From NCBI GenBank assembly GCA_025362415.1, contig JANYGM010000475.1:1-41691 (forward strand): a stretch of 41,691 nucleotides of DNA. Reading direction: 5' to 3'. Source of the stretch: a bacterium (GTDB lineage Bacteria; Bacteroidota; Bacteroidia; Cytophagales; Thermonemataceae). Within the stretch, counting starts at the first letter, position 1; each line of letters opens with the position of its first letter. A program made the translations under genes and the position numbers. This document shows positions 3,364-5,201 of the stretch, piece by piece. The notes under the pieces were generated by a model that was not told the origin of the DNA, did not search any database, and saw only the letters and a program-made list of their open reading frames with translations.

Positions 3364-3472
3364 TGCGGAGAGATGGGCTTGAACCACCAAAAAAACGTAC
3401 TCTGTGTTTGTCATTTTAAAATCTGTTGTCGGAGCAGACTAAAAAACCGCTTTACCAATTTGCTATCTCCGC
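3364..3472 (-). ncRNA. tRNA-like element with intact acceptor stem and T arm but a non-canonical 58-nt insert in place of the anticodon/variable region
   Basis: Minus strand reads GCGGAGA-TA-GCAAATTGGTAAAGC-GG...(58 nt)...GGTGG-TTCAAGC-CCATC-TCTCCGC-A. The acceptor stem pairs 7/7. The T arm is 5 bp with one G.U. The D stem has only 2 Watson-Crick pairs. A 7-bp hairpin (3343-3363) follows immediately. Confidence 0.4.
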
Positions 3473-3554
3473 AAAAGTACCCCTCCCAATTCAATATCCT
3501 TCGGCAGGAGGGGTTTTATGTGGCACATCTTTTAGAAAGGTTTAAGCTGAATAC

Positions 3555-3586
3555 GCAGACACTTTAACCAATTAAGCTACCCAACC
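3555..3586 (-). pseudogene. tRNA 5'-half-like segment (acceptor 5' strand, D arm, anticodon-stem 5' strand)
   Basis: Minus strand reads GGTTGGG-TA-GCTT-AATTGGTTA-AAGT-G-TCTGC. The D stem pairs 4/4 (one G.U). It is complementary to the 3'-half-like segment at 3614-3647. Confidence 0.45.
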
Positions 3587-3613
3587 TATTGATAATCAAT
3601 ACAATAGCTTTTG

Positions 3614-3647
3614 AGGTCAGGGACGGAATTGAACCGTCATCTCCTGC
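3614..3647 (-). pseudogene. tRNA 3'-half-like segment (anticodon-stem 3' strand, 4-nt variable loop, T arm, acceptor 3' strand, discriminator)
   Basis: Minus strand reads GCAGG-AGAT-GACGG-TTCAATT-CCGTC-CCTGACC-T. The T stem is a perfect 5 bp with a TTCAATT loop. Confidence 0.5.
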
Positions 3648-3800
3648 GGAGAACTTTCTAGGTCGCAATTCTATAAAAGACTGTATAAGTTCATATAAAA
3701 GTTCTAGACTTTTTTTAGCAAAACGCTATGATTTTATACAGCGAGTTTATAAGGGTGCAACCAGCCCACTACTCCTTCCTTTTCTTTGTGTTTTGTGCTA
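3648..3800 (-). ncRNA. Candidate omega-RNA (reRNA) scaffold of the tnpB element; extent approximate
   Basis: By analogy with characterised IS200/IS605 TnpB systems, the guide RNA scaffold overlaps the 3' end of tnpB and the right end of the element. An 8-bp pairing AGAACTTT (3696-3703) / AAAGTTCT (3649-3656) closes the ~85 nt downstream of the stop codon. No covariance model was applied. Confidence 0.3.
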
Positions 3801-4993
3801 ATTTCTAAGCATAAATTTTCATAAGAAAACTGAGGGGTTTCTTTTCTAAGAATATTATAAGCACCATTTACATCTGCATTGATAAAAACACCTTTATACG
3901 TCTTATAAAGCCCACGTTTGACACGTGTACCACTAAAACTATGGTTGGTTTTACTCAAATACATCTTTGGCATAGCATCATTATCAATGAAACTAGCTTT
4001 TGATGTGTAACTCTCTTCTCTTGTAATGACTTTAATGTCGTGCTTTTCTAATTTATACTTTATCTTTTGTATAAATTGACCAAGAGAAAGATTAACAAAA
4101 TTTTGATTATTCCTCTTTCCTAAATTTATTTTATTATTACTATTTTGAACATTCCCAATAATAACTGTACTTATTTGATTATCAACACATTGTTTAGTGA
4201 TTTTAGCACTTGCTTTATGTAAATAATCATTTATTTGTCGCTCACGTTTGCGAGTAATAACTTCTAGTTTTTTGCTATGATTTTTGTCGTTACGTTTTTT
4301 AAGAACAGACTTTATTTTAGATGTTCTTTTATTGTAATGTTGATTAATAGATTTTAATGGCTTTCCATTAAGTAGGAAGGGTTTTATAATACCATTACTC
4401 ACGCAAGTAGCCAAATTATTCAAACCCAAATCAATAGCCATTTTATTATCATTGCTTATAATTTTTTCGTAAATTTCTTTACTTTCGTAAGAAAAAATGG
4501 CTTCCAAATGACCATAACGACAATAAATTTCAATTTGATTGATTTTGTGGTTTAATAATTTTTTAGGTAAATCAATAGAAAAACTTTTTTTTAAGAAAAC
4601 TTGATTATCTTTTATTATAAAACGCTGATTATCAAATGTTAAATAACAATATTTTTCCTTAATAAATTTGGGAATACGTGGTTTTCCTTTGTATTTTTGT
4701 GGATTTTTGGCATAATCTTTCAAAGATTTAAAGAAACTTTGAAAGTTGGTACAAAGATTTCTAAGTAGTTGTTGGGCTACGCCCGCTTTCCAAATAAGCC
4801 TATAATTATACTGATTTTCAAGGTTTAAAACAGTTTTCATTAACTTGTCTAATTCTCCATAAGATAAAAAAGTTTGGTGTTCTTTATAGTGCTTTTTGAT
4901 ACAATAAAGAGCCTGATTATAAAGATTTTTTGCATAAAAACACTGCGTTTTTAGTTCCTTAAATTGGGATTTATCCAACTTACGGAGCTTCAT
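3734..4993 (-). CDS. tnpB: RNA-guided endonuclease TnpB (IS200/IS605 family accessory protein, IS1341-like solo form)
   Basis: RuvC-I AIDLGLNNLATC (D), RuvC-II TREESYTSKASF (E), RuvC-III INADVNGAYNILRK (D). The segment between RuvC-II and III has no cysteines, so no CxxC zinc finger. ATG at 4993 (MKLRKLDKSQF...) is preferred over the in-frame GTG at 5023. No Y1 transposase (tnpA) lies nearby. Confidence 0.85.
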   Translation of the reverse strand: MKLRKLDKSQFKELKTQCFYAKNLYNQALYCIKKHYKEHQTFLSYGELDKLMKTVLNLENQYNYRLIWKAGVAQQLLRNLCTNFQSFFKSLKDYAKNPQKYKGKPRIPKFIKEKYCYLTFDNQRFIIKDNQVFLKKSFSIDLPKKLLNHKINQIEIYCRYGHLEAIFSYESKEIYEKIISNDNKMAIDLGLNNLATCVSNGIIKPFLLNGKPLKSINQHYNKRTSKIKSVLKKRNDKNHSKKLEVITRKRERQINDYLHKASAKITKQCVDNQISTVIIGNVQNSNNKINLGKRNNQNFVNLSLGQFIQKIKYKLEKHDIKVITREESYTSKASFIDNDAMPKMYLSKTNHSFSGTRVKRGLYKTYKGVFINADVNGAYNILRKETPQFSYENLCLEISTKHKEKEGVVGWLHPYKLAV

Positions 4994-5201
4994 TTTAACA
5001 GATTTTATATACACTTTTTCCACAAGACAAAGATACTAAAAATAATCTATAAATAAAATACTTTCTTATATGATTTTATACGCTTTTACCAACTATATAT
5101 TTAATTTTATTTTTATCATAATTTTTTTAATTTACTTGTTGTTTCCTAGTCGTTGTTTATATCTTCACAAATAATCAGTAATATTTTTTGTATTCATTAA
5201 A

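What the first reader, a model, noticed from the sequence alone, without database searches (positions are those of the whole stretch)
3533..3660. Matching tRNA 3' half and 5' half in permuted order directly downstream of tnpB
The two halves, read on the minus strand:
- 3647->3614 reads GCAGG-AGAT-GACGG-TTCAATT-CCGTC-CCTGACC-T. This is an anticodon-stem 3' strand, a 4-nt variable loop, a perfect T arm, an acceptor 3' strand and a discriminator.
- 27 nt further downstream, 3586->3555 reads GGTTGGG-TA-GCTT-AATTGGTTA-AAGT-G-TCTGC. This is an acceptor 5' strand, U8-A9, a D arm, G26 and an anticodon-stem 5' strand.

How they fit together:
- The acceptor strands pair 7/7 (two G.U) and the anticodon stem pairs 5/5 (one G.U), so together they make a standard-sized cloverleaf.
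- The gene order, however, is 3' half then 5' half.
- The 27-nt linker contains the palindrome tattgataatcaata (3587-3601).
- The leader of the 3' half (TAGAAAG, plus 3654-3660) is complementary to the trailer of the 5' half (CTTTCTA, plus 3533-3539).
- No canonical 7-nt anticodon loop can be assembled from the adjoining bases (position 37 would be C).

Possible readings: (a) wreckage of tandem tRNA genes split in the anticodon region by mobile-element insertions; (b) a circularly permuted or split tRNA-like RNA, which to my knowledge is not described in bacteria; (c) tRNA-derived sequence co-opted as the guide or flank of the TnpB RNA.
Basis: seen in the sequence. Interest (0 to 1): 0.7.

Follow-up and report, generated by a model that had tools for sequence, protein, structure and literature searches.

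The report
Permuted tRNA mimic beside DUF7873 genes
The "3' half then 5' half" is a real, conserved, circularly permuted tRNA-shaped RNA that normally follows a gene of unknown function (DUF7873), mostly in large phages; here a transposon has cut off its front end, and I found no published description or database family for it.

Summary
Window 3660->3533 (minus strand) folds as: leader/trailer helix P1, anticodon-type stem, T arm, a 7-bp acceptor stem closed by a 27-nt linker, then the D arm.

It is not tRNA wreckage and not part of the tnpB element.
- Other copies of the IS diverge exactly at 3660.
- Two related genomes carry the same RNA without tnpB, downstream of a DUF7873 gene.

A covariance model finds one such element downstream of almost every DUF7873 gene searched. 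The loci are metagenomic contigs, IMG/VR phage contigs, a Rhizobium phage and a Vibrio phage.
- All 28 base pairs show compensatory changes.
- 95.7% of cells are paired, against 63.5% when shuffled.
- The tertiary pairs 15:48 and 8:14 also covary.

The bases after the acceptor 3' strand follow the tRNA-gene habit of each genome: N73+C in the Bacteroidota-type loci, N73+CCA in the Rhizobium and Vibrio phages. This suggests tRNA-type end processing into a two-piece tRNA mimic.

The closest known relative is the YrlA Y RNA. YrlA's Ro60 gene, its 5' motif and the Rfam threshold are all missing here.

In this window the DUF7873 gene and the 5' RNA region are replaced by the IS, so this copy may be a remnant. 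Function is unknown. I rate it a new variant of a known kind.

The parts
3654..3660 (-). P1 helix, 5' strand (TAGAAAG). This is the first base of homology to the intact module and abuts the right end of the IS.
   Evidence: Pairs with 3539-3533. Helix 1: all 7 pairs have double changes, 87.5% of cells paired. Homology to L008 starts at 3660.
3648..3653 (-). 5' side of the internal loop between P1 and the anticodon-type stem (TTCTCC)
   Evidence: Variable in length (6-12 nt or more) and sequence in relatives.
3643..3647 (-). Anticodon-type stem, 3' strand (GCAGG)
   Evidence: Pairs with 3559-3555. Helix 2: 5/5 pairs with double changes, 98% paired.
3639..3642 (-). Variable loop (AGAT). Its last base, U48, partners A15.
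   Evidence: The 15:48 pair covaries: G:C 19, A:U 5, G:U 4.
3622..3638 (-). T arm (GACGG-TTCAATT-CCGTC)
   Evidence: Helix 3: 99.4% paired. T loop GTTCRAnTC conserved.
3615..3621 (-). Acceptor stem, 3' strand (CCTGACC)
   Evidence: Helix 4: 7/7 pairs with double changes, 97.2% paired.
3613..3614 (-). U73 and C74, invariant in the Bacteroidota-type loci. Probable tRNA-type 3' end.
   Evidence: TC in all 31 distinct full-length sequences tabulated. Ordinary tRNA genes of the same loci also end N73+C. Rhizobium and Vibrio phage versions encode N73-CCA.
3587..3612 (-). Variable linker that closes the acceptor stem. Probably removed by RNase P and 3' processing.
   Evidence: In one search, which counts U73 and C74 with the linker, its length runs from 16 to 78 nt with no sequence conservation. 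L039 has about 170 nt. It always ends just before G1.
3580..3586 (-). Acceptor stem, 5' strand (GGTTGGG), starting with G1
3560..3579 (-). U8 A9, D arm (GCTT-AATTGGTTA-AAGT) and G26
   Evidence: Helix 5: 98.4% paired. G18 G19 conserved. The 8:14 pair covaries: U:A 22, C:G 4.
3555..3559 (-). Anticodon-type stem, 5' strand (TCTGC)
   Evidence: helix 2.
3540..3554 (-). 3' side of the internal loop (GTATTCAGCTTAAAC), with the semi-conserved AGC(A/U)U...AAAC motif
3533..3539 (-). P1 helix, 3' strand (CTTTCTA)
   Evidence: helix 1.
3480..3513 (-). Conserved hairpin. A 9-bp stem covaries. The 16-nt loop CCGAAGGATATTGAAT holds the conserved GAAGGAUAUUGA motif. ACTTTT follows.
   Evidence: Perfect stems of unrelated sequence around the same loop motif in more than 20 loci. 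Seen only in the Bacteroidota-type loci.
3364..3472 (-). Second tRNA-like RNA in normal order. It has a class-II-type D arm and a long variable region. Its long irregular anticodon arm ends in a 9-nt loop. It ends A73-C74.
   Evidence: Rfam tRNA 34 bits. ARAGORN misses it here and calls its relatives tRNA-??? or 'Pyl'. Present in most Bacteroidota-type loci.
3661..5095 (-). IS605-family element carrying tnpB (ORF 5023-3734). It is not part of the RNA. It replaces the DUF7873 gene and the 5' RNA region found in relatives.
   Evidence: Pfam OrfB_IS605 plus Cas12f1-like TNB. Ends defined by comparison with copies L001-L004. About 1250 nt of L008 are missing here.

Best explanation
Window 3660-3533 (minus strand) encodes a circularly permuted tRNA-shaped RNA domain. 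It is a member of a conserved RNA family that lies just downstream of DUF7873 genes on the same strand.

Anatomy, 5' to 3':
1. helix P1, 5' strand;
2. internal loop;
3. anticodon-type stem, 3' strand;
4. variable loop;
5. T arm;
6. 7-bp acceptor stem whose two strands are joined by a variable linker;
7. D arm;
8. anticodon-type stem, 5' strand;
9. internal loop;
10. helix P1, 3' strand.

There is no anticodon loop, so the RNA cannot decode.

In the Bacteroidota-type loci the module continues with a hairpin that has a conserved loop, and then a second, non-decoding tRNA-like RNA. Both are present here, at 3513-3480 and 3472-3364.

The module occurs inside tRNA gene arrays or elsewhere in large phage genomes. 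It also occurs as a solitary cassette of about 1.5 kb at different places in bacterial chromosomes.

Shown: the fold, its conservation, its linkage to DUF7873, and its independence from the IS.

Inferred:
- The RNA is transcribed with or just after DUF7873.
- RNase P cuts before G1, and the tRNA 3' pathway trims and completes CCA after N73. The linker is lost, and two base-paired pieces form a tRNA mimic with a free CCA end and an open, extended anticodon-side helix.
- This mimic acts together with the DUF7873 protein as an RNA-protein unit in tRNA-related phage-host biology.

In this window an IS605-family tnpB element sits exactly at the 5' edge of P1. The DUF7873 gene and the 5' leader region are gone, so this copy is truncated and may be inactive.

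My confidence by step:

| Step | Confidence |
|---|---|
| Conserved permuted tRNA-like RNA of this family | about 0.9 |
| Two-piece processing | about 0.5 |
| Works with DUF7873 | about 0.5 |
| This copy is still functional | about 0.4 |
For: Independence from the IS:
- The right ends of three other IS copies match up to ...GCGACC and then diverge.
- L008 and L012 (dapB 95% and 87% identical) carry both tRNA-like RNAs without tnpB, after a DUF7873 gene.

Family and linkage:
- A simple stem scan found fully complementary but unrelated acceptor, T, D and AC stems downstream of DUF7873 in most metagenomic loci.
- Model R1 gave 40 hits at 39-71 bits for complete matches, none in control loci and one in the window. 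In the loci whose DUF7873 coordinates are on record there is one per locus, on the + strand, about 100-130 nt after the stop in most. The hits include 11 IMG/VR loci that were not among the seeds.
- It also hits Rhizobium phage RHph_TM21B (43.7 bits) and Vibrio phage K477 (36.3 bits) downstream of 27%- and about 25%-identical homologues.
- Tandem-tRNA junctions reach only about 24 bits or less.

Covariation:
- 95.7% of cells paired, against 63.5% shuffled and at most 49% when the partner is slid.
- All 28 pairs have changes on both sides. Score 0.787 against 0.208.
- Tertiary pairs 15:48 and 8:14 covary.

tRNA-type ends:
- G1 is always present. U73-C74 is invariant where local tRNA genes end N73+C.
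- N73-CCA is encoded where local tRNA genes encode CCA.
- The linker is unconserved, 16-78 nt's count (which includes U73 and C74) and about 170 nt in L039.

Precedent: M. smegmatis YrlA, with a 7-bp acceptor stem, is cut by RNase P and receives CCA (10.1101/312249).

Mobility of the cassette:
- Chromosomal contexts differ.
- L009 to L011, close relatives, lack it.
- Phage contexts are shown.

Truncation here: there is no DUF7873 in the window, and homology to L008 resumes at 3660.
Against: - There are no expression data. Transcription, processing and the two-piece form rest on sequence conventions and on one precedent.
- The link to the DUF7873 protein is adjacency only. Its model (pLDDT 86) has no significant structural or sequence match, and the family has no domain fusions.
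- Prevotella Lak megaphages have a DUF7873 homologue (45%) but no detectable RNA downstream. A few other loci (L021, L041, L063) give weak or no hits.
- The alignment used for pair counts was fitted to the model, and the model's seeds had their variable loops trimmed. The independent scan and the slide control argue that this does not create the signal.
- In this window the partner gene and the upstream region are missing. Selection on this copy cannot be shown with three near-identical relatives.
Confidence: 0.6

Rival explanations
1. The copy in this window is a dead remnant. The family is real, but this copy lost its promoter, its DUF7873 gene and its 5' RNA domain when the IS arrived. It persists only because the event is recent.
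For: About 1250 nt present in L008 (inverted repeat, DUF7873, AGC-repeat region) are replaced by 87 nt plus the IS, and no DUF7873 lies anywhere in the window. Relatives L009 to L011 do without the module altogether.
Against: From 3660 to 3354 the sequence is 92.5% identical to L008, and every stem is intact (63 bits). The few substitutions in stems keep pairing, while the linker and the flank toward dapB have diverged strongly. Read-through from tnpB and its guide RNA could still transcribe it. DUF7873 could be encoded elsewhere in the genome.
Confidence: 0.4
2. It is a bona fide YrlA-type Y RNA that binds the Ro60 (Rsr) protein and tethers it to an effector.
For: The topology is the same as YrlA. 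Rfam YrlA gives full-length but sub-threshold hits in three relatives: 36.2, 29.7 and 29.3 bits. L022 and L023 have GGCGAAU in the 5' loop, close to the YrlA motif. Some phages do encode Ro60 with a tRNA-like partner (PMC7824862).
Against: - The window element gives no YrlA hit even at E<=10, and the curated cut-off is 69 bits.
- No TROVE-domain gene was found in the window or in two 20-kb phage contexts.
- The GNCGAAN0-1G motif is absent here.
- In the loci whose gene positions were on record, the gene just upstream is DUF7873.
Confidence: 0.08
3. It is a true circularly permuted tRNA gene, matured into a decoding tRNA by cutting at the leader/trailer junction, circularising, and opening at the acceptor stem, as in Cyanidioschyzon and Thermofilum.
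For: The gene order and the leader/trailer helix resemble those genes (PMC3978253). One phage context encodes RNA ligase, a kinase/phosphatase-like protein and Tpt1.
Against: - The junction is an asymmetric internal loop (6 and 15 nt here), not a bulge-helix-bulge.
- No 7-nt anticodon loop with U33 and a purine at 37 can be rebuilt here or consistently in relatives.
- No splicing endonuclease is known in bacteria (10.1101/312249).
Confidence: 0.04
4. It is debris of tandem tRNA genes, or a 3'-half att-site remnant, with no function of its own.
For: Tandem copies of one tRNA would give T arm and acceptor 3' strand, a spacer, then a matching acceptor 5' strand and D arm. The model gives about 24 bits to such junctions. 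YrlA itself may have evolved from a tRNA dimer.
Against: - The missing halves are absent in every locus, and ARAGORN finds no flanking tRNA.
- The leader/trailer helix and the AC stem covary across the permuted junction.
- The arrangement is conserved from Bacteroidota-type loci to Rhizobium and Vibrio phages.
Confidence: 0.02
5. It is part of the TnpB guide RNA or of the IS itself.
For: It starts at the first base after the IS right end, so 3660 to about 3643 is by position the guide segment.
Against: Other IS copies carry unrelated sequence there. The RNA exists without the IS in L008, L012 and more than 40 other loci.
Confidence: 0.02

Closest known systems
YrlA Y RNAs (Rfam RF02553; Chen et al. 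2014, PMC4201824; Wang et al. 2018, 10.1101/312249)
   Same: - A bacterial or phage non-coding RNA with a circularly permuted tRNA-like domain. The 5' and 3' ends pair to form the anticodon-side stem, followed by T arm, acceptor stem-loop and D arm.
- tRNA tertiary pairs are kept.
- No anticodon loop.
- The M. smegmatis member has a 7-bp acceptor stem, is cut by RNase P and gets CCA.
   Different: - No Ro60 gene nearby; the linked gene is DUF7873.
- The GNCGAAN0-1G motif is absent.
- Scores are below Rfam's cut-off, or there is no hit at all.
- The acceptor stem is always 7 bp, with tRNA-type N73-C(CA) and a long variable linker.
- Extra conserved parts: the AGC-repeat region, the hairpin with the GAAGGAUAUUGA loop, and a second tRNA-like RNA.
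Two-piece tmRNA from circularly permuted ssrA genes (alpha- and beta-proteobacteria, cyanobacteria)
   Same: The gene order is T arm, acceptor 3' strand (CCA), intervening segment, acceptor 5' strand. The intervening segment is excised and the two pieces stay paired. Rfam beta_tmRNA aligns to exactly this part (15 bits).
   Different: No G3.U70, no tag reading frame, no pseudoknots. A full D stem and an anticodon-type stem are present. ARAGORN finds no tmRNA.
Circularly permuted tRNA genes of Cyanidioschyzon merolae and Thermofilum pendens (PMC3978253, PMC3218864)
   Same: The 3' half lies upstream of the 5' half. The acceptor stem is initially closed by a linker. The leader and trailer pair.
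   Different: Those genes mature into decoding tRNAs through a bulge-helix-bulge cut and ligation. Here there is no such motif and no anticodon loop can be rebuilt.
Small stable tRNA-like RNAs in phage tRNA clusters (T4 species 1 and 2 RNAs; from my own knowledge, not checked here)
   Same: Non-decoding stable RNAs encoded among phage tRNA genes and processed by the tRNA machinery, with no known function.
   Different: I know of no permuted order or dedicated protein partner for them.

Membership tests
Canonical tRNA gene | Contiguous order: acceptor 5' strand, D arm, anticodon arm, variable loop, T arm, acceptor 3' strand | tested here: not met
   The order is permuted. ARAGORN finds nothing. 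Rfam tRNA does not hit 3660-3533.
Canonical tRNA gene | 7-nt anticodon loop with U33 and a purine at 37 | tested here: not met
   The stem opens into a 6/15-nt internal loop and helix P1. No consistent loop can be assembled in relatives.
Canonical tRNA gene | Four cloverleaf stems plus conserved T- and D-loop bases and tertiary pairs | tested here: met
YrlA Y RNA | Permuted tRNA-like domain: AC stem formed by the two ends, then T arm, acceptor stem-loop, D arm | tested here: met
   compared with the description.
YrlA Y RNA | Encoded next to a Ro60/Rsr (TROVE domain) gene | tested here: not met
   No TROVE hit among 26 of the window's 29 ORFs of at least 150 aa or in 20-kb contexts L046 and L049. 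The rest of each genome could not be searched.
YrlA Y RNA | GNCGAAN0-1G motif near the 5' end (putative Ro60 site) | tested here: not met
   Absent from 3660-3643 and from L008 upstream sequence. A near match, GGCGAAU, occurs only in L022 and L023.
YrlA Y RNA | Score at or above Rfam RF02553's gathering cut-off (69 bits) | tested here: not met
   No hit in the window at E<=10. Relatives score 29-36 bits.
Two-piece tmRNA | Permuted tRNA-like domain with CCA, an intervening segment, then the acceptor 5' strand | tested here: met
   Partial beta_tmRNA alignment. CCA is encoded in the Rhizobium and Vibrio phage versions.
Two-piece tmRNA | G3.U70 alanine identity, tag reading frame and pseudoknots | tested here: not met
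   U3-A70. ARAGORN finds no tmRNA. The downstream hairpin covaries as RNA.
Circularly permuted tRNA gene (algal/archaeal type) | Bulge-helix-bulge at the leader/trailer junction, giving a 7-nt anticodon loop after ligation | tested here: not met
   The internal loop is asymmetric and variable in length.
TnpB guide RNA / IS605-family element | Sequence shared by other copies of the same IS, ending at the right end | tested here: not met
   Copies L001-L003 diverge from the window at 3660.
DUF7873-linked permuted tRNA-like RNA (family defined here) | Fold P1-AC-T-acceptor(7 bp)-D with G1 and N73-C | tested here: met
   63.2 bits, full-length match to model R1.
DUF7873-linked permuted tRNA-like RNA (family defined here) | Lies about 100-200 nt downstream of a DUF7873 gene, on the same strand | tested here: not met
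   The gene is missing from the window. It is present at the orthologous site in L008 and L012, so the window copy is a truncated member.

The most novel reading that the evidence does not exclude
The DUF7873 protein and its permuted, CCA-ended, two-piece tRNA mimic form a previously unrecognised RNA-protein system. In the Bacteroidota-type loci it also includes a hairpin and a second non-decoding tRNA-like RNA. The system moves between large phages and bacterial chromosomes. It acts on the tRNA or translation machinery, for example as a decoy or adaptor in conflicts over tRNA, or as a non-ribosomal aminoacyl carrier.
Probability: 0.4. Interest if true: 0.8.

Novelty: new variant of a known kind. 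Interest (0 to 1): 0.65.

Why it matters
- Only a few kinds of natural tRNA mimic are known to me, so a further covarying family with a different, dedicated protein partner would be a useful addition.
- This family is widespread. The DUF7873 family has 816 clusters at 50% identity.
- The module sits inside phage tRNA arrays and also hops between chromosomal sites. That pattern hints at a role in phage-host conflict over tRNAs or translation.
- It gives DUF7873 its first functional lead.
- It is testable in cultured systems, because Rhizobium and Vibrio phage isolates carry it.
- It is a caution for annotation. tRNA finders miss the permuted element and mislabel its neighbour as tRNA-??? or tRNA-Pyl.

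Tried and rejected
- **Split by the tnpB insertion.** I looked for the missing 5' half upstream of the IS left end and found none.
- **Part of the IS.** Rejected by comparing IS copies.
- **tmRNA.** Only a 15-bit partial match, and no G3.U70.
- **YrlA membership.** The motif, the neighbouring gene and the score all fail.
- **Function of DUF7873.**
  - Pfam gives only the DUF itself.
  - NCBIfam, PHROGs and PADLOC give nothing.
  - The AlphaFold model is good (pLDDT 86), but Foldseek finds nothing significant in PDB or BFVD. The top PDB rows are rich in Cas7-type subunits, with E about 0.02 and TM about 0.1. This is not usable as evidence.
  - A profile search against PDB sequences gives nothing.
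  - There are no domain fusions among the best 150 of the 816 clusters.
- **MAFFT alignments of the raw elements.** They misplaced the variable loop and the D loop. I therefore bootstrapped the model from seeds with trimmed loops and counted pairs only on real sequences realigned to it.
- **Loop-loop pairing between the conserved hairpin and the second tRNA-like RNA.** Strong in a few loci, absent in the window and most others.
Full report
**1. The observation**

On the minus strand the window reads as follows:
- tnpB ORF, 5023-3734;
- the end of the IS, ...TTTTATAGAATTGCGACC;
- from 3660: TAGAAAG-TTCTCC-GCAGG-AGAT-GACGG-TTCAATT-CCGTC-CCTGACC-T;
- a 27-nt linker;
- GGTTGGG-TA-GCTT-AATTGGTTA-AAGT-G-TCTGC;
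- GTATTCAGCTTAAAC-CTTTCTA, ending at 3533.

ARAGORN sees no tRNA here. Rfam gives only a 15-bit partial match to the permuted beta-proteobacterial tmRNA model over the T arm, acceptor strands and linker. Free-energy folding alone is unremarkable (z = -1.4), so the case rests on comparison with relatives.

**2. It is not part of the IS and was not split by it**

The tnpB product has the OrfB_IS605 and Cas12f1-like TNB domains. Four related IS copies were fetched: three from Raineyaceae genome bins and one from a Leptospirales bin.
- The three copies that include the right end match the window up to ...GACC and then diverge completely.
- Three of the four copies share the left end, which starts around TATAGTYGGTAAAAGCG; L001 does not align there.
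- The window's left flank holds no tRNA 5' half.

The sequence from 3660 onward is therefore flank, not element. By position it is where the TnpB guide lies, as any right flank would be.

**3. Orthologous loci**

Contigs carrying the identical dapB are identical throughout. dapB orthologues gave divergent loci.
- L008 (dapB 95%) and L012 (87%) carry both the permuted element and a second tRNA-like RNA upstream of dapB. They have no tnpB. A 265-aa DUF7873 (PF25283) gene sits upstream instead.
- L009 to L011 lack the whole block. In L009 the M28-dapB spacer is only 184 nt.
- The three substitutions inside the stems keep pairing: U68 to C opposite G5, U25 to C opposite G10, and A to G opposite U in the T stem.
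- The linker is 27, 37 or 54 nt (28, 38 and 55 nt's count, which includes U73).

BLAST of L008 against the window shows homology through the M28 gene down to 5183, and again from exactly 3660 to 3354 at 92.5% identity. No DUF7873 is found anywhere in the window. About 1250 nt of L008 are replaced here by 87 nt plus the IS. That stretch holds a long inverted repeat, DUF7873 and its 3' region.

**4. A family**

DUF7873 has about 700 close relatives in the 90% clusters and 816 clusters at 50% identity. Among the best 150, all are stand-alone proteins of up to about 290 aa, and the shorter ones match only part of the profile. I fetched 33 metagenomic loci and 13 IMG/VR viral loci from contigs of 4.8-213 kb, eleven of them 65 kb or more.

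A plain scan looked for a T loop with a 5-bp stem, a 7-bp acceptor complement within 260 nt, a D stem and an AC stem. In nearly every locus with enough downstream sequence it found a perfect or near-perfect permuted cloverleaf, with unrelated stem sequences. A leader/trailer helix of 6-7 bp also changes sequence while staying complementary.

I built covariance model R1 from 14 seeds whose variable loops were trimmed to equal length. This was only a bootstrapping device. Over 304 kb it gave 40 hits.
- Complete matches score 39-71 bits.
- Where the position of the DUF7873 gene is on record, there is one hit per DUF7873 locus, always on the gene's strand. In most loci it starts about 100-130 nt after the stop; in a few it lies up to about 450 nt downstream.
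- There are no hits in the control loci (L001-L004, L009, L010).
- There is one hit in the window, at 3533-3660 on the minus strand (63.2 bits).

**5. Covariation**

On the 32 distinct real sequences realigned to the model:

| Measure | Observed | Shuffled |
|---|---|---|
| Cells paired | 95.7% | 63.5% |
| Pairs with changes on both sides | 28 of 28 | mean 20.1 |
| Covariation score | 0.787 | 0.208 |

- With the 3' partner slid by 1-3 columns, at most 49% of cells pair.
- No shuffle out of 500 reached any observed value.
- Each of the five helices (P1, AC, T, acceptor, D) has double changes in every pair.
- Tertiary pairs covary as in tRNA. 15:48 is G:C 19, A:U 5, G:U 4. 8:14 is U:A 22, C:G 4.
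- The T loop GTTCRAnTC and G18 G19 are conserved.

The alignment is fitted to the model, which inflates the pairing somewhat. The independent scan and the slide control show that the signal is real.

**6. Ends that look like tRNA ends**

- G1 opens the acceptor 5' strand in every locus.
- The acceptor 3' strand is followed by U then C in all 31 distinct full-length sequences tabulated from the Bacteroidota-type loci.
- Ordinary tRNA genes in the same loci also end N73+C without a full CCA.
- In Rhizobium phage RHph_TM21B the DUF7873 homologue (27% identical) lies inside the tRNA array, followed by a 454-nt unannotated gap. R1 hits that gap at 43.7 bits. There the acceptor 3' strand is followed by C-CCA, and 11 of the 12 neighbouring tRNA genes encode CCA.
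- In Vibrio phage K477 the element scores 36.3 bits and reads CTCAGCC-A-CCA.
- The linker is unconserved. It is 16-78 nt's count, which includes U73 and C74, and about 170 nt in L039.

The simplest reading is that the acceptor stem is opened by RNase P and the tRNA 3'-end pathway. That would leave two paired pieces with a CCA end. M. smegmatis YrlA behaves this way. This step is inferred, not shown.

**7. What it cannot be**

The AC stem continues into an asymmetric internal loop and helix P1, not into a 7-nt loop. Taking bases from either side does not give U33 consistently (13 of 23 relatives). Maturation to a decoding tRNA is therefore unlikely.

For tmRNA, there is no G3.U70 and ARAGORN finds none.

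For YrlA:
- The topology matches.
- No TROVE gene turned up among the window's ORFs that I scanned, or in two 20-kb phage contexts.
- The GNCGAAN0-1G motif is missing.
- Rfam's YrlA model gives no hit here, and only 29-36 bits in three relatives against a cut-off of 69.

**8. The rest of the module**

In the Bacteroidota-type loci the permuted element is followed by two more conserved parts.
- An ACAAAA-type stretch and a hairpin. The 9-bp stem covaries and the loop keeps GAAGGAUAUUGA. In the window this is 3513-3480.
- A second tRNA-like RNA in normal order, at window 3472-3364. It scores 34 bits against Rfam tRNA. It has a class-II-type D arm and a long variable region. Its long irregular anticodon arm ends in a loop of the wrong size. 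ARAGORN reports its relatives as tRNA-??? or tRNA-Pyl.

Between the DUF7873 stop codon and P1 lies a region full of AGC triplets spaced exactly 6 nt apart. This region is missing from the window.

**9. Context and mobility**

Phage contexts:
- Long contigs with DUF7873 are phage genomes. They carry rIIB, DNA ligase, RNA ligase with HNH, a kinase/phosphatase-like protein, Tpt1, Macro and NADAR genes.
- GenBank phages with homologues include Prevotella Lak megaphages, Rhizobium phages, Vibrio phages and one Pseudanabaena phage.
- Lak has the protein, but no RNA hit was found downstream.

Chromosomal contexts:
- The same module also sits alone between unrelated chromosomal genes. In L023 (a 643-kb contig) it lies between GH65 and amylase genes. 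In L022 it lies between DUF2262 and a tetrapyrrole methylase gene. In L008 it lies between the M28 peptidase gene and dapB.
- It is absent from close relatives.

It therefore behaves as a mobile accessory cassette made of one protein gene plus RNA.

**10. The protein**

The AlphaFold model is confident (pLDDT 86.4). It has no significant match in PDB or BFVD, no PDB sequence relative, and no hit in NCBIfam, PHROGs or PADLOC. No paper in the held library mentions DUF7873, and searches for permuted or two-piece tRNA-like RNAs in phages found nothing relevant.

**11. Verdict**

The thing is a circularly permuted tRNA mimic of a conserved family linked to DUF7873. I found no description of this family. 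It works most like YrlA or the tRNA-like domain of two-piece tmRNA, but it fails the membership tests for both.

In this window the copy is truncated at its 5' edge by an IS605-family element, so its link to tnpB is an accident of insertion. The function of the RNA and of DUF7873 is unknown. My best guess is an RNA-protein unit that presents a processed, CCA-ended tRNA body lacking an anticodon to some tRNA-binding machinery. I hold that with moderate confidence.

Noticed in passing
window 3364-3472 (minus strand): A second tRNA-like RNA in normal order. It scores 34 bits against Rfam tRNA but ARAGORN misses it. It has a class-II-type D arm, a long variable region, and a long irregular anticodon arm with a 9-nt loop (CUCCGACAA). 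It ends A73-C74. Relatives are called tRNA-??? (2- or 4-nt anticodon) or tRNA-Pyl by ARAGORN.
   Followed up: partly
window 3480-3513 (minus strand): A hairpin with a 9-bp stem that covaries across more than 20 loci and a conserved loop motif, GAAGGAUAUUGA. A U-run often follows. It may double as a terminator or be a protein-binding site.
   Followed up: partly
L008:3460-3645, and the same region in about 25 loci (absent from the window): The stretch between the DUF7873 stop codon and P1 is full of AGC triplets spaced exactly 6 nt apart (AGCYUUAGC...). 39 of 91 successive spacings equal 6, against 0.27 in shuffles. A conserved AGUGUUG motif lies between two such blocks. Foldseek's non-significant top PDB rows for DUF7873 are rich in Cas7-type subunits, which (from my own knowledge) bind RNA with a 6-nt repeat. 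This is a hint only.
   Followed up: partly
L056, L059, L060, L052 (hairpin loop against the interior of the second tRNA-like RNA): In some lineages the hairpin loop GAAGGAUA is complementary over 6-11 nt to UAUCCUUC inside the second tRNA-like RNA, which suggests loop-loop pairing. The window and most other loci lack this.
   Followed up: yes
window 3661-5095 (minus strand); L001-L004: An IS605-family element with an intact 429-aa tnpB and no tnpA in the element. Other copies sit at different sites in related Raineyaceae bins, so it is probably active or was recently. Relative to L008, the insertion coincides with loss of about 1250 nt on the left side.
   Followed up: partly
L008:2400-2580: A long, nearly perfect inverted repeat of about 130 nt lies between the M28 peptidase gene and DUF7873 (spurious Rfam miRNA hit, 33 bits). 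It may be a terminator or a small mobile element at the cassette's edge.
   Followed up: no
L049:1-5600: The phage contig carrying the module also encodes a set of RNA-repair-type genes: Tpt1 (PTS_2-RNA), RNA ligase with HNH, and an HD plus AAA_33 kinase/phosphatase-like protein. Macro, NADAR and ADP-ribosylglycohydrolase genes are also present.
   Followed up: no
L039:3560-3740; L055:2540-2620: In two loci the acceptor linker is much longer, about 170 and 78 nt. In L039 it contains a D-arm-like stretch (GTAGCTCAGATTACAGAGCG), as if another tRNA-like piece were nested in the linker.
   Followed up: no
L021:1071-1192: A variant locus has the T arm and an acceptor-type hairpin downstream of DUF7873, but no recognisable D arm. 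It scores 19.7 bits with the model.
   Followed up: no
L067:1482-1607 (Vibrio phage K477): An annotated tRNA of 126 nt sits in the phage tRNA array. It is far too long for a normal tRNA and may hold an intron or be another odd tRNA-like RNA.
   Followed up: no
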